Source of the DNA: Elusimicrobiota bacterium
GTDB taxonomy: Bacteria; Elusimicrobiota; Elusimicrobia; F11
NCBI GenBank assembly: GCA_046153645.1
Contig: JBJXGI010000063.1
Span: 1-57,110 of the forward strand
DNA: 57,110 nucleotides
Direction: 5' to 3'
Part shown: positions 42,001 through 48,000 of the stretch, piece by piece
Position numbering within the stretch: position 1 is the stretch's first letter
Layout of the letters: every line of letters starts with the position of its first letter
Program-made: the position numbers

Positions 42001-45000
42001 AACCTTATTAATCTCTTCAGAAAATTTATTTAAAAAAGATTTTTTAAATGGCGCTTTGGATGTATACCAATCCCGATAATTAAGAGAAGCTTCTCTTCCT
42101 TGGCGACTTAGAATTATATTCCAATCAATAAATACAACTCGCCGGCCAAATTTTTTACATAAATTTTTTAAAAAATTATTTATCTCATCAACAACATCCA
42201 CAACTTCTAAATGATTCCCCTGAGTACTGCCAATAGAAAAATTAAACGGCCTCAGAAAACTATTAACAACCAGCGTTGCACTGGTAAGATTCATCACTTC
42301 ATTTATTATTTTTTCAATTTCTTCTTTTTCATTCTTTCCATTCCACTCAGGCATCCCATAAGAAGAAGTCATTTCCTCAAGCATGAGAGTTAGAACAACC
42401 AAATCAGTTTTTTGATTTGCTACTTCTCCTCCTAAAATCTCTTGGTGGAAAGTTCCGTAACCACCAAATTTAATATTGGTTTTTAGTCCAGACTGGTAAG
42501 CGTGAAATTTCAAAAATGGTTCAATATTTTCTAGGGTGTAATTTCGGAGAAAAAAAATATTGAGATCTTCTTTTTTTAATTCTGTTTTCTGATCACATTC
42601 TTGGATCGCGGAAATCAATGAGGGAAAACTATTCAAATCAACACTTTTAAGAATAGTTGCAATTTCACTAGACATAAGAGAAATTTTTACGACTTAACCA
42701 AAGACCCATATTTTTCTTTTCGATTAAACATGCATCTTGCAGGATTCCCCACCATAACCGAGTATGGAGGAATATCACCTGAAACAACCGCGCCCGCAGA
42801 GATAACCGATCCCGAACCAATTTTTGTTCCCGAAAGCAAAATAGCTCCTGCACCAATCCACACATCGTTTTCAATGACAATGCTATATTCTCGATTATTA
42901 TAATTCACCACCAATGATTTTAGACCTTGCTTTCGCATTGGCATTGTGAGGTCTTCAATTCCGTGATTAACCCCTTGTAGGGAAACCTGTTTAGAGATCA
43001 TAACATCATCCCCGATATAAATTCCCCTAGATGAATTCGCAACAATGTTGGTACCTGGGCCAATTGCAACATCAGATCCAATTTCGACAAGGTCTGGAGA
43101 AAAAATAATTGCTCTCGCACGAATAACGAAATTTGGACCGCACTTTTTTAGCAATAATTTCCAGTAAGCACGTCTAAAAAAAGAACTCAAATAAATATCA
43201 GGGTACTCACCAACAATATAGGTAATGAAAGAGCATAGCTTACTGTGTATATATATACTCTTTAGCTTCGAGAGGATATTCATTTCTAGTTGTTCCTCAT
43301 AATAATTATAAATGCGCAGGACGGGATTTGAACCCACAAGGGCTTTCGCCCACCAGCTTCTGAGACTGGCGTGTCTGCCATTCCACCACCTGCGCAAAAA
43401 GTTGAAGCATTATTTTTGTTGAGCAGAAAAATTCAATTTGGCCTCAATATTTTCTTGAGCTTTCGCAGCTGGAATATGAGGATGAGGACCTCGTTGCGCA
43501 GCTTTCAACTCATTAATAGCTTCCAAATGTTTGCCTTGACCGGAAAGCGCCATTCCTTTCCAATAATAGGCTTCTGCTGACATAGGATTTCGGTCTAATG
43601 CTTTTTGAGCTGCGGATATTGTTTTTTTTAAGTTTTTTTCATGATACTCAACTTCGGCTAAGAAAACCCAGGGAGTTGAAGCTTTAGGATCTTTATCTTG
43701 CCATGATTTAATGGCTTTTCGAGCTTGAGTAAAGTTTTCTCCATCAATAAAAGTACGAATCGTATTTCCATCTTGTACACCAGAATTGGCATTGAGTGGT
43801 GCAAAAGAGACACCAAAATAAAAAAAAGAAATAAAAAGTAATAATGAATAATGTTTTTTCATAATTGAATTATAGCAAGTCAGAGTCTCGAAGGTTGAGG
43901 AAGCTTTAAGGGTTTTTTGAATTTTCTTTTAAGATAAGGTGACGACAAGCAGTAATAGTACGGCGACTCACATGAAGTGAATAGTTTTCTGCTAAATGAT
44001 GCGCCAACTGTAGATCAGTCCATTTTTGATTATTTTCGTGTAACGTTTTATCGAGTGCAACAAGCACCACTCTTCTTTGCCCAGGCATTAAATCTGTTAT
44101 TAAAACCTCTTTATCCCAAGGTAATAACACACTTTTGAGCGCCAGCACTCGACTTAATGTACTGGGAGAAAAATGGAGATCTTTGGCACCTTTTCTTAAA
44201 GAGATAGGGGATAATTTGGTTTCATCTTTAGAATCAAAATAGGCTTTTTGAGCTTTTAATATGAAATCAGTCACTTGCCAAAAAGCCCCTTGCTTCATAT
44301 TAGAAAGTTCAAGAACTCCAATATATTTTCTTAATCGAGCAGCTTCACTTCGATTGAGGCCCTTGTTTTTTTGCCAGCGTTTAAGGGCATCTCGATCAAT
44401 TTCATACATGCCACGCGCCAAATGTGGTGAAAAAAAAGACATTGAATAAGTTCCGTCCACGTTGGGAATAATTTTACCCACCATTTGTGGGCGAGCCAGA
44501 TCATTACTCTCAAGCGCGGAGGGATGATAAAATTCGGCCTGTACGGAAACATCTAAAATAAGATCCTGAATTTCCTTGGTTTCTGACATAGATAAGTGAC
44601 AAACCTCGGCAATGTTTTCTAATGACTCGCCTTCTTCACGATAAAGAAAAAATTTCTCAAAGTTATCTTGCCCAATTTTTTGAATTAGTTTAAGTAAATG
44701 TATTTTTTGATTAAGAATGGTTTCTGGGGCACTGCCATGCCCTCCAGCAACATTGGTTTCTTGGTTGTCATAAAATTGACTGGCCAATTTAGTTTGACCA
44801 AAACGCTTAAAGCGAATAACCTTTTTTCCTTCTGATTTTCCACTTAATAAATCCTGAAAAAGAGGATCTCTTTCAATATCACCAATAAGCCGTGCCCATT
44901 GAGATTCTGGAAGTTGAATAGCCTGGGCCATTTTAACGCGCCCAACCAAAACAGTGCGAATAGCATTTTGAGGAGAAACAGATTGCTTAAGATGAATTCG

Positions 45001-48000
45001 AGGATCAGACATAGATATTATATGCAACAGAAGTGCCAGAAAATCAAGAGAAAAAATGGTGTCCTCGGCAGGATTCGAACCTGCGACCCACAGCTTAGCG
45101 TACCACATCTAATTCCTTAGATCAGGAAATTTCTTTCCTGTTGTGGTCTGGACTATATCTTAGGCATTTCAGCCCTTGGGCGTATAGTCTCTACGGAACC
45201 TCGAGAAAATCAGAAGCCAAATGAACTTTTTTACTCTGATTATTTCTCGACGCCTTTACCCTCAAGTTAAGTGATTTTCTAAACCTCTTTGGATCAAAGT
45301 AATAACATTGATCCGTTTCGGGGCAATACAAACAATATAAGTCAATCTTGGATTTATCAATATGTTTGGTATGGACACCATACTTATCAGACCATGAAGA
45401 TCTAAAAAATACAGGCATACAACCATTCTTATTCATTGACCGATACTTCACTTGCACCGTTTTGAAGGAGCTATCTTTATAAATCACCAAATCAAACTCA
45501 GCATGTTCAGTTAATGGTTTTAAAACCATAAAACCTTGCGTGGCCAAGTCCGCTTGAGCCTTCAAGACGCCTATGTCACCTTTATCTTTTGTGTGATGCT
45601 TCATGAGTGACCTACAGTTTCCTCGGTGTTGTCCATTTTTGGGAGTTTCACCGATATAGCCCAATCCACCATTTAGGTTTGTTTCCCTACATGGGCTCCT
45701 AGATTGAAGGCTGTTGCTCTTCCAGCTGAGCTACGAGGACGATTGAAACAAAGCTATTCTAGTTTAAATTTTTAAAAAGTTCTCGGACGTTTTTTGGGAT
45801 CTGTTTAAAAGCAAGGGCACGGTGACTTATTTTGTTCTTTAAACTGGCTGACATTTCAGCAAAGGTTTTTTTATATTGGGGAACCCAAAACACGGGATCG
45901 TAACCAAAACCTTGACGTCCCGATATGTTTTCAGCAATGAACCCTCGAATCTCTCCCTTGGCAAGAATTGTTTTTCCGCTCGGAGTTGCCAGAGCAGCCA
46001 CGCATCGAAAACTGGCGGTTCGTTTCTGAAAGGGTGTTTTATTTAGTTTTTTTAGAACCTTCTCATTATTATCCTGAAATGAACAACCAGGGCCTGCAAA
46101 ACGAGCAGAATAAACTCCGGGCGCCCCTTTTAACGCATCAATAAAAAGACCCGTATCATCTGATAAAGAGAGACATCTAGTTTGTTTTGCCACTTCAATA
46201 GCTTTTTTCTTCGCATTTCCTTCGATTGTTTTCTTGTTTTCAACAACGGGTTTTCGTTTTGGAAAATCAGCTAAAGTCAAAACTTTCAATGAGAGTCCTG
46301 CTTTCTTCAAAATACTTTTAATTTCTGTGACTTTATGTTTATTATTCGTCGCCAAAACAATTCGATCTAAAGGAAAACTCATTTTTTGACTCCCAGAACT
46401 TTCTTTTGTTCTTTCGTAATTTGAGAAATTCCTTTCTTTGCTAAATCAATCATTTGTTCAAATTGTTTCATCGAAAAAGGTTTTTCTTCCGCGGTTCCTT
46501 GCACTTCTATTAATTCACCGTGAGATGTCATGACCACATTCACATCCGCTTGAGCGTCTTTATCTTCGTTATAACTCATATCAAGGAAAACTTTGTTTTT
46601 ATAAAGCCCCACTGACACTGCACCGATAAAATCTCTTATTGGCCATTCACTGATAAGTCCTGCTTTAAAAATTTTTTGTATGGCTAAATGGAGCGCCACA
46701 AACCCACCATTAATAGATGCCGTCCGCGTTCCCCCATCGGCTCGAATGACATCGCAATCAATCGTGATCGTTCGGTTTCCCAAGAGTTTTAAATCAACGG
46801 CTGATCTAAGAGACCTCCCAACCAATCGAGAAATTTCTTGTGCCCGTCCACCCGTTGAACATTTTTGGCGTGAACTTCTCTGTTGTCCCGATCTTGGTAA
46901 CATGGCGTATTCTGCGCTCACCCAACCTATTCCTTTTTCTATCGCATGGGGAGGCGCTTTTTCTTCAACGGTAGCAACACAGAGCACTTGCGTTTGACCC
47001 ATTTTGACCAAACAAGAACCTTCCGCATGGGGTAAAAACGATTTTTTGAAAGATAAGAGACGAAGTGAATTGTGCGATTTATTTATCATAGGCAATGAGT
47101 ATACAATCACTTCTTCCCACAAGAAAAGAAAAAACCCCACAACCCATAAATCATATGGGAAGCGGGGTTTTTAATAAGTCTATGAATAAGAACTAATTCA
47201 GAGCGGTGTCACCTTTTTCTCCCGTGCGAATACGCAAAGCGTCAACAACATCAGTGATAAAAATCTTTCCATCACCAATTTTACCGGTCTTGGTCACCTT
47301 TACAATTGTACTGACAAGTTCAGGTGCTTCTTTATCGGTAACGACAACTTCAATTTTCACTTTGGGAAGAAGGCCCACTTTATATTCTTGACCTCTCCAT
47401 TGCTGAGTCACGCCTTTTTGACGGCCATGACCTTCAATTTCGGTTACCATGATTCCAGGATAACCGGCAGCTTGAAGAGCGTCCAACACTTCGTCCAAAC
47501 TATCTGGCCTAATAACAGCTTCAATTTTTTTCATAAATCCCCCTATTTCCCAACCGAGACAGGTTTCCCGTCGGCAACATATGCATGGCTAGATTTTCGA
47601 GTTAAGAATTCTGGGTAAGCCATTTGCCCATGTTCTCCAATATCCAAGCCTTCAATTTCTTCTTCTAAAGAAACTCTGACACCCATCGTAATTTTAATTA
47701 AATACCAAACGATCAGAGATGTAAAGAAAACAAATGCTCCAACGGCGGCAACACCAATGAGTTGTGCGGTTAATAATTTTGTTCCTCCACCGAAAAACAG
47801 ACCATTGCCCGTGGTATTGGGAATAAACTGATCTTGAGCAAAAAGACCAACGAAAATGGTTCCCAATACACCGCAACCTAAGTGAACAGCCAACGCACCT
47901 ACAGGATCGTCCATTTTGATTTTATCGAAGAACACCACAGCAAAAACAACGAAAATACCGGCAATGAGTCCGATAATAAATGAACTACCAACACTAACGA

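What a model noticed while it worked through the whole genome (the two positions that open the first line are those of the whole stretch)
43906..45108. Compact sigma-54 of class Elusimicrobia: ~370 aa, shrunken core-binding region and altered RpoN box
The vertically inherited sigma-54 (g00406) is about 100 aa shorter than E. coli's, matches neither the activator-interacting nor the core-binding Pfam domain, and ends right after an RpoN box changed from RRTVAKYR to RRT(I/V)TACR. It models onto sigma-54 from end to end, so it is a minimal variant that may read a different -24 element.
Evidence so far: Found in 10 of 11 F11 and 12 of 14 other relatives. Lengths 349-379 aa and RRTxT[AV]CRH in all 11 F11 copies aligned, RRTxNxxRH in 3 others; the flagellar copy g01180 keeps VRTVAKYR. 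Only Sigma54_DBD in Pfam. Model pLDDT 82; best matches are RNAP-sigma54 structures, Z 13, 226 residues aligned over 20-367.
(Added by a program. Inside this text positions count along the whole contig: contig position 1 is position 1 of the stretch shown here. "Call 12" and the like, gene names such as g00115 and contig names such as C1 are that model's own, and its searches are not shown. The text may have been shortened before it was handed on; [...] marks where a part breaks off. The agent that wrote the report below was given it as the finding of a first reader that could run no searches.)

Follow-up and report, generated by a model that had tools for sequence, protein, structure and literature searches.

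The report
Compact sigma-54 with relaxed promoter code
A group of uncultured bacteria uses a shortened sigma-54 transcription factor whose polymerase-binding part is about half the usual size and whose DNA-reading helices have changed; its likely promoters keep the classic core letters but follow different rules at the flanking positions, a natural variation on a system thought to be nearly invariant.

Summary
The gene is real but starts at 45012 (368 aa). It is 109 aa shorter than E. coli sigma-54: about 72 aa are lost from the core-binding region, 29 from region II and none from region I. Compactness is not special to this copy: the flagellar copy, all 65 matches in 43 of 61 class genomes and a Dehalococcoidia gene belong to one compact family. 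It co-occurs with enhancer-binding proteins (39 genomes both, 14 neither, 8 discordant). Footprinting finds GG-N8-TTGC sites before the gene itself (8 of 10 F11 copies) and before a secreted-protein operon (9 of 9 F11 genomes with upstream DNA, 3 predicted in advance). So -24 is relaxed, not replaced. GG is invariant (R455/R456 are kept), but C-A-pyrimidine follows it in 5 of 17 sites (E. coli 27 of 34), and pyrimidine-purine precedes TTGC in 17 of 17 (E. coli 7 of 34). The -12 helix has changed too (H377/E378 to S/A-P). Nothing is tested biochemically. The scan noted a compact Elusimicrobia sigma-54 module before, on another genome. Verdict: new variant of a known kind.

The parts
43906..45012 (-). 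compact rpoN (sigma-54) gene, 368 aa (P0001)
44857..45012 (-). region I (aa 1-52): two helices, ERDPLF matching E. coli ESNPLL; not shortened
   Evidence: E47 in 79 of 79
44731..44856 (-). region II (aa 53-94), about 29 aa shorter than in E. coli; acidic finger apparently kept
   Evidence: register read by eye
44518..44730 (-). half-size core-binding domain (aa 95-165), four helices
   Evidence: no Sigma54_CBD match; weak structural match to sigma-54 residues 205-271 (Z 4.3)
44140..44352 (-). extra-long helix and -12 helix-turn-helix (aa 221-291); E. coli H377-E378 become S-P, while S379, T380 and R383 are kept
43915..44079 (-). RpoN (-24) domain (aa 312-366); box at 43942-43965 keeps R455, R456, T457, R462 and changes A459T, K460A, Y461C; conserved tail lost
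45023..45038 (-). GG-N8-TTGC sigma-54 site before its own gene; the A of the start codon falls on +1; overlaps a weak sigma-70-like promoter
   Evidence: equivalent site in 7 other F11 genomes
   Evidence: one search compared with the unsplit tRNA in L009; PF11645 E 1.5e-36

Best explanation
A functional, activator-dependent sigma-54 of a compact family. It binds core RNA polymerase through a single-module core-binding domain (inferred), is held closed by an intact region I and is opened by the genome's NtrC-type GAFTGA activator (inferred from co-occurrence). It recognises promoters of the normal -24/-12 spacing. The kept arginines read GG; loss of A459/K460/Y461 and of the C-terminal tail relaxes the neighbouring -24 bases; the altered -12 helix goes with an extended -12 element (pyrimidine-purine-TTGC). 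In F11 the regulon is small: an operon of secreted proteins with T9SS-like C-terminal tails and a PorV-like partner, plus a site at its own gene, probably autoregulatory. Shown: anatomy, distribution, conserved sites. Inferred: binding, activation, which residue causes which base preference, and the sign of autoregulation.
For: Residues whose pairwise substitution nearly abolishes activity in the published scan (455/456: 0%, 379/380: 2%, 383/384: 0% in vivo) are kept; changed ones are largely tolerant (377/378: 68%; 459/460: 23% in vivo, 121% in vitro) (PMC2715252 table passages; alignment). Sigma and activator co-occur: 39 genomes both, 14 neither, 4+4 discordant of 61. 26 of 65 sigma matches lie within 8 kb of an activator gene (counted). 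Activator loops are GAFTGA 39, GAFTDA 12, GSFTGA 7, other 3 of 61. GG-N8-TTGC follows 19 of 61 activator genes against 2-5 for other spacers and 0-3 antisense, and precedes 19 of 79 compact rpoN genes against 0-4 for other spacers. The orthologous operon has the site in 6 of 6 genomes next to ispA and in 3 of 3 where it has moved, as predicted beforehand. G003, G005, G008, G009, G010 and G011 carry the operon site and show only this sigma copy. In G006 neither activator, site nor operon was found, and it has the most diverged copy.
Against: No binding or transcription data. The 461/462 pair mutant is inactive in vivo (poorly expressed, 28% in vitro), so Y461C may cost activity. No genome-wide enrichment of the canonical or the variant pattern over reversed controls in single-copy F11 genomes, except G003 (11 vs 2). 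Sites are orthologous and genomes related, so counts are not independent. The A at -26/-27 before rpoN may be imposed by an overlapping sigma-70 -35 element. About 3-4 of the 19 post-activator hits are expected by chance. The site before this window's own gene and 4 of 9 operon sites have the canonical C-A-pyrimidine. G009, G010 and G053 (71-93% complete) and G006 show sigma without a detected activator.
Confidence: 0.75

Rival explanations
1. Ordinary specificity: a diverged but functionally standard sigma-54. The flank differences reflect a few inherited promoters, deliberately weak autoregulatory sites and overlap with sigma-70 elements.
For: Core geometry and GG/TTGC are canonical; the site before this gene is a textbook match; E. 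coli sigma-54 also binds many sites without C-A-pyrimidine, mostly intragenic (PMC4591121 tables); only two orthologous loci make up the F11 set.
Against: Pyrimidine-purine before TTGC in 17 of 17 F11 and 11 of 11 other rpoN-proximal sites while neighbouring spacer bases vary; purine at -21 in 17 of 20 post-activator sites against 2 of 34 in E. coli; both reading helices carry family-wide changes.
Confidence: 0.15
2. A wholly different -24 element, for example the 11-bp-period repeats found before the giant secreted-protein genes.
For: Those repeats are highly conserved just downstream of the sole F11 activator gene in 7 of 7 genomes shown and recur before more than ten giant genes in G000.
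Against: In the best-spaced cases they end about 10 nt before a sigma-70-type -10 hexamer, and they are tandem direct repeats typical of OmpR/PhoB-family sites (recalled); an OmpR-family gene is in the operon; R455/R456 are kept; GG-N8-TTGC sites explain the sigma without them.
Confidence: 0.04
3. Not a working sigma factor: with half the core-binding domain it no longer loads polymerase and acts as a DNA-binding repressor, or it needs an unknown partner that replaces the missing half.
For: The isolated domain shows no significant sequence or structure match to the sigma-54 core-binding domain; residues 120-215 are the primary core-binding region in the enteric protein (PMC2715252 passage); head-to-head double sites at rpoN in 5 genomes look repressive.
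Against: In 200 of 201 phylum genomes no canonical core-binding domain was found, yet intact GAFTGA-type activators track the gene, canonical sites stand before genes in the flagellar cluster, and start codons often sit 12-15 nt past TTGC as for a transcription start.
Confidence: 0.06

Closest known systems
Canonical sigma-54/RpoN (E. coli 477 aa; Aquifex 5UI5; TIGR02395, PF00309/PF04963/PF04552)
   Same: Domain order, region I helices, extra-long helix, both helix-turn-helix units, R455/R456/T457/R462, S379/T380/R383, GG-N8-TTGC geometry, GAFTGA activators.
   Different: 109 aa shorter; core-binding domain about half, four helices; no AID/CBD Pfam match; TIGR02395 40 bits against a cut-off of 277; A459/K460/Y461 and H377/E378 changed; tail lost; relaxed -24 flanks and conserved pyrimidine-purine at -17/-16.
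Specialised RpoN paralogues of Rhodobacter sphaeroides and Bradyrhizobium (passages in PMC3162934 and PMC3538637)
   Same: Several paralogues per genome, each tied to cognate activators, told apart by promoter bases near -12.
   Different: There the promoters are reported to differ at one base (-11 or -12). Here both reading helices and the architecture change, and sigma and activator genes are often neighbours.
Engineered orthogonal sigma-54 R456H/Y/L (PMC12096077 passages)
   Same: Shows that RpoN-box changes can re-code -24 recognition.
   Different: The engineered forms change R456 and one G of the GG; the natural family keeps both arginines and varies 459-461.

Membership tests
sigma-54 (RpoN) | Sigma54_DBD (ELH-HTH plus RpoN domain) | tested here: met
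   PF04552 37.1 bits over cut-off 22.8; 79 of 79 members; profile to 5UI5 E 2e-23
sigma-54 (RpoN) | Region I activator-interacting helices | tested here: met
   No PF00309 hit, but two helices 14-33 and 36-48 align to sigma-54 from residue 12; E47 invariant
sigma-54 (RpoN) | Full-length core-binding domain (PF04963, E. coli about 120-260) | tested here: not met
   87 aa stand where E. coli has 159; no PF04963 match. Which half remains is inconclusive
sigma-54 (RpoN) | RpoN box ARRTVAKYR | tested here: not met
   SRRTITACR; R455, R456, T457 and R462 kept, 459-461 changed
sigma-54 (RpoN) | Promoters with GG/GC at -24/-12 and fixed spacing | tested here: met
   Spacer-specific excess; orthologous sites. 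Computational only
sigma-54 (RpoN) | Co-occurrence with GAFTGA-type AAA+ activators | tested here: met
   39 both, 14 neither, 8 discordant of 61; loops
sigma-54 (RpoN) | Binds core polymerase and needs activator ATPase to open DNA | not testable with these tools
TIGR02395 rpoN_sigma equivalog | Score above curated cut-off | tested here: not met
   40.2 bits against 277.35

The most novel reading that the evidence does not exclude
The compact family is a natural set of mutually insulated sigma-54 systems. Paralogues in one cell (here the flagellar copy with H377 and VRTVAKYR, and the housekeeping-locus copy with S/A377-P378 and RRTITACR) read different promoter dialects, told apart mainly at -16 (pyrimidine in most flagellar-cluster sites seen, purine in 17 of 17 F11 sites) and -22/-21. 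Each works with its own activator, using a core-binding domain half the size thought necessary.
Probability: 0.35. Interest if true: 0.82.

Novelty: new variant of a known kind. Interest (0 to 1): 0.62.

Why it matters
The two DNA-reading helices and the promoter consensus of sigma-54 are described as very well conserved across bacteria (PMC3162934 section 7), and a 2025 engineering paper asks why nature did not diversify them (PMC12096077 discussion passage). This family offers hundreds of natural variants (369 clusters at E<=1e-30) with candidate cognate promoters, so the protein-DNA code at 377/378 and 459-461 becomes testable. It suggests that about half of the core-binding domain is dispensable, which bears on polymerase loading and promoter escape. 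It could supply ready-made orthogonal sigma/activator/promoter sets. It also shows that annotation by the CBD family or TIGR02395 misses sigma-54 across a phylum.

Tried and rejected
(1) 11-bp-period repeats before giant secreted-protein genes as the sigma's promoter: rejected, they fit OmpR-type boxes ahead of sigma-70 -10 hexamers. (2) An A-A-G-G-type new -24 consensus genome-wide: not enriched (38 hits against 86 controls in 5 genomes); of the 30 loci examined, the only intergenic hits were the four rpoN sites. (3) Canonical and variant patterns genome-wide in F11: at or below the reversed controls, except G000 (18 vs 3; it has the flagellar copy) and G003. An upstream-region scan of G000 gave only a mild excess for spacer 8 (92 vs 54-75). 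(4) Which half of the core-binding domain remains: hhalign found nothing; the domain model gave no match above Z 5.7, mostly generic helix-turn-helix proteins, with sigma-54 205-271 at Z 4.3 and 2K9M at E 1.6, while weak HMM stretches point to the first half; unresolved. (5) A hidden canonical sigma-54 in the class: none; PF04552 hits are the same loci plus one sub-threshold hit. (6) RNA evidence: no RNA holder listed. (7) Complex prediction with beta-prime: tool not available. (8) The careful tree did not finish; only quick trees. (9) Doucleff 2007 and Campbell 2017 are not held, so base contacts of 459-461 are not sourced. (10) Literature searches listed no paper on Elusimicrobia or compact sigma-54; the library lacks most subscription journals and I read no supplements. 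(11) No significance test was run on base counts.
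Full report
Observation. The open frame is at 43906-45108 on the minus strand, but the gene starts at the ATG at 45012 and gives 368 aa. Homologues are mostly 363-375 aa and align from this residue. The 96 extra bases hold the end of an intron, the 3' exon of a tRNA-Arg(UCU) and a promoter (unsplit tRNA in L009). Among sigma-54 Pfam families only Sigma54_DBD matches; TIGR02395 scores 40 bits against a cut-off of 277. A model from 79 sequences (pLDDT 85) has sigma-54 structures as its 23 best Foldseek matches and aligns end to end (Z 13.0, rmsd 6.5, 227 residues).

Residue map. I used E. coli RpoN from a named record (477 aa). Anchors are ERDPL/ESNPL (47-51 against 42-46), residue 182 against 278 (hhalign probability 97) and, read by eye, PETIL/LQDYL (96-100 against 120-124; the flagellar copy has TDQYL). 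Region I is 5 aa longer, region II is 29 aa shorter, the core-binding domain plus linker is 87 against 159 aa (72 shorter), and the DNA-binding half and tail are 13 shorter: 109 in all. Published boundaries are RI 1-56, RII 57-120 and CBD 120-260 (passages of PMC7057263 and PMC5505868). Four helices remain. Which half they are is unresolved. MAFFT and a weak structural match favour 205-271 (Z 4.3, tied with unrelated helix-turn-helix proteins), while sub-threshold HMM stretches favour the first half. The two halves begin with similar sequence (LQDYL, LRDCL), so loss of one unit of an internal repeat is my inference.

Distribution. The query finds 65 matches in 43 of 61 genomes, up to four per genome. 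PF04552 finds the same loci and one sub-threshold hit, and a canonical core-binding domain occurs in 1 of 201 phylum genomes. The 79 aligned members span 342-411 aa. The flagellar copy (395 aa) is in the family, so compactness predates the box change. In quick trees (SH-aLRT only, two outgroups) the family is one group (100), the flagellar copies form a clade (99), and 22 copies lacking Y461 form a clade (91) that includes F11. Of 36 GTDB loci, 32 are titled Elusimicrobia, 3 'bacterium' and 1 Dehalococcoidia. The last lies between nusB and a kinase gene, is 371 aa and falls inside the family. One Atlas cluster is commonest in Chloroflexota. PMC3162934 (passages) lists Elusimicrobium minutum as lacking sigma-54.

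Reading helices. Over 79 members R455 is kept in 70, R456 in 77 and R462 in 78; position 459 is N in 34 and T in 29, and 461 is Y in 37 and C in 34 (F11 is over-represented). R455/R456 are the base-reading residues, and R456 changes re-code one G of the GG (PMC12096077 passages). The -12 helix is altered too: H377-E378 become A/S-P in most members, while the five flagellar copies keep H377. In the published pair scan 455/456, 379/380 and 383/384 are essential in vivo; 377/378 keeps 68%; 459/460 keeps 23% in vivo and 121% in vitro; 461/462 is poorly expressed with 28% in vitro; and N471 in the tail is named as a -24 contact (PMC2715252 passages). So most changes hit tolerant positions, Y461 and the tail being the costly ones.

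Activators. Sigma and activator are found together in 39 genomes and neither in 14; 4+4 are discordant. 26 of 65 sigma matches lie within 8 kb of an activator gene (counted from those tables); none of the F11 main copies does. G000 has two activators, one in the flagellar contig and an NtrC-type one with GAFTGA at C79 in a conserved kinase/regulator operon; in G047 that operon follows the sigma gene directly.

Promoters. (a) Unbiased test: GG-N8-TTGC lies within 220 nt after 19 of 61 activator genes, against 2-5 for spacers 5-7 and 9-11 and 0-3 antisense. (b) It precedes 19 of 79 compact rpoN genes against 0-4 for other spacers; all 19 are among the 39 copies without Y461 and none among the 40 with it (classes counted by eye). 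Twelve antisense hits reflect paired or symmetric sites. In F11 it is present in 8 of 10 copies with upstream DNA and absent in G006 and G009. In this window it is at 45023-45038, with the start codon on +1. (c) An operon of secreted proteins carries the site in all 6 genomes where it follows ispA. I then predicted it for genomes where the operon has moved: G004, G005 and G007 each have one spacer-8 site in 1.5 kb, 127-137 nt before the first gene and followed by the same downstream element. G001's copy starts at a contig end and could not be tested; three control loci had 1-2 extra spacer-8 hits in coding DNA. The G000 operon ends in a 1810-aa protein with a T9SS-like tail and a PorV-like gene (read by eye; related G047 targets match Por_Secre_tail below cut-off and UPF0164).

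Base preferences, counted by eye from printed outputs, with no test and related genomes. The control is the 34 intergenic E. coli sites marked predicted or confirmed in Table 1 of PMC4591121 (8 unmarked rows left out). For E. coli, F11 (17 sites: 8 at rpoN, 9 at the operon) and post-activator sites of the class (20): T at -26 in 31, 7 and 16; A at -22 in 29, 9 and 6; pyrimidine at -21 in 32, 7 and 3; C-A-pyrimidine in 27, 5 and 2; purine at -16 in 15, 17 and 17; pyrimidine-purine at -17/-16 in 7, 17 and 11. The 11 non-F11 sites before rpoN all have purine at -21 and pyrimidine-purine at -17/-16. The three exact intergenic sites in G000's flagellar contig are canonical with T at -16. These positions were not part of the search pattern. 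Against over-reading: the site in this window and 4 of 9 operon sites are canonical at -24; the A at -26 before rpoN overlaps a sigma-70 -35-like hexamer in 7 genomes; and no genome-wide enrichment was seen in most single-copy genomes, so the regulon is small.

Mechanism. Most likely this is a working enhancer-dependent sigma-54 that has shifted recognition weight from the -24 flanks to an extended -12 element. The site at its own gene could activate or repress. Its place inside a sigma-70-like promoter, and a second head-to-head site 6 nt away in G003, G004, G005, G008 and G011, favour repression (negative autoregulation of rpoN is recalled, not sourced here). The start codon on +1 in G000 favours activation. 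G006 shows no activator, site or operon and has a long branch with a deletion in the core-binding helices, as expected of decay.

Novelty. Searches listed no paper on this family; the library is incomplete and supplements were not read. An earlier unchecked note of this scan (e1-2081041) describes a compact Elusimicrobia sigma-54 module with self-promoter on another genome; it agrees but is not independent support. New here are the residue map, the change in the -12 helix, and the flank rules. It works like sigma-54, fails two defining features (full core-binding domain, exact box), and is best filed as a new variant. Interest 0.62.

Noticed in passing
window 45057-45740 (-): tRNA-Arg(UCU) interrupted inside the anticodon by a 608-nt group-I-like intron with a PD-(D/E)XK endonuclease ORF; missed by ARAGORN and Rfam. 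L011 seems to have an intron at the same place. A paper search on Elusimicrobia group I introns listed none.
   Followed up: partly
G000 C79:12440-12500 and C11, C15, C34, C50, C69, C71, C74, C86, C87, C91, C102: A regulon of mostly giant secreted proteins (up to 8730 aa) with two kinds of 11-bp-period direct repeats about 10 nt before a sigma-70 -10 hexamer, often with the start codon near +1 (leaderless); conserved in 7 F11 genomes after the activator gene.
   Followed up: partly
L176-L187, L290, L291, L294 (downstream of the sigma-54 site): Three 11-bp-period repeats in the 5' leader, reverse Pho-box-like, conserved in the operon copies; could be an OmpR-type repressor site or a downstream enhancer for the activator.
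   Followed up: no
L010, L011, L013, L014, L016: Two sigma-54 sites face each other 6 nt apart at rpoN, also where the start codon does not constrain them.
   Followed up: partly
L191:1525 and L149:1501: A candidate internal sigma-54 site inside the giant gene, about 105 nt before the PorV-like gene, in two genomes; may be coding conservation.
   Followed up: no
L286:1812-7695 (G000 C43): The giant target gene is in two frames (145 aa and 1810 aa) where relatives have one of about 1980 aa: frameshift or assembly error.
   Followed up: no
L039, L052, L054: Two compact rpoN paralogues with different boxes lie side by side in G030, G042 and G037.
   Followed up: no
L071/L004 (G000 C58:43395): The flagellar activator has GAYTGA in place of GAFTGA and seems to lack a C-terminal helix-turn-helix; 12 of 61 class activators have GAFTDA.
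   Followed up: no
window 44293-44295 (aa 240): The position of E. coli R336, a bypass-mutant site, is K in F11 copies and R in most others.
   Followed up: no
window 40143-43862: An acyl-carrier/FkbH-like/acetyltransferase block (40649-43397) is inserted between the TPR gene and smpB, which are near neighbours in relatives.
   Followed up: no
window 47193-49165; L113, L114: glnK-amtB near the gene had no canonical site in the G000 scan, while amtB of G014 and G024 has a sigma-54 site about 180 nt upstream.
   Followed up: no
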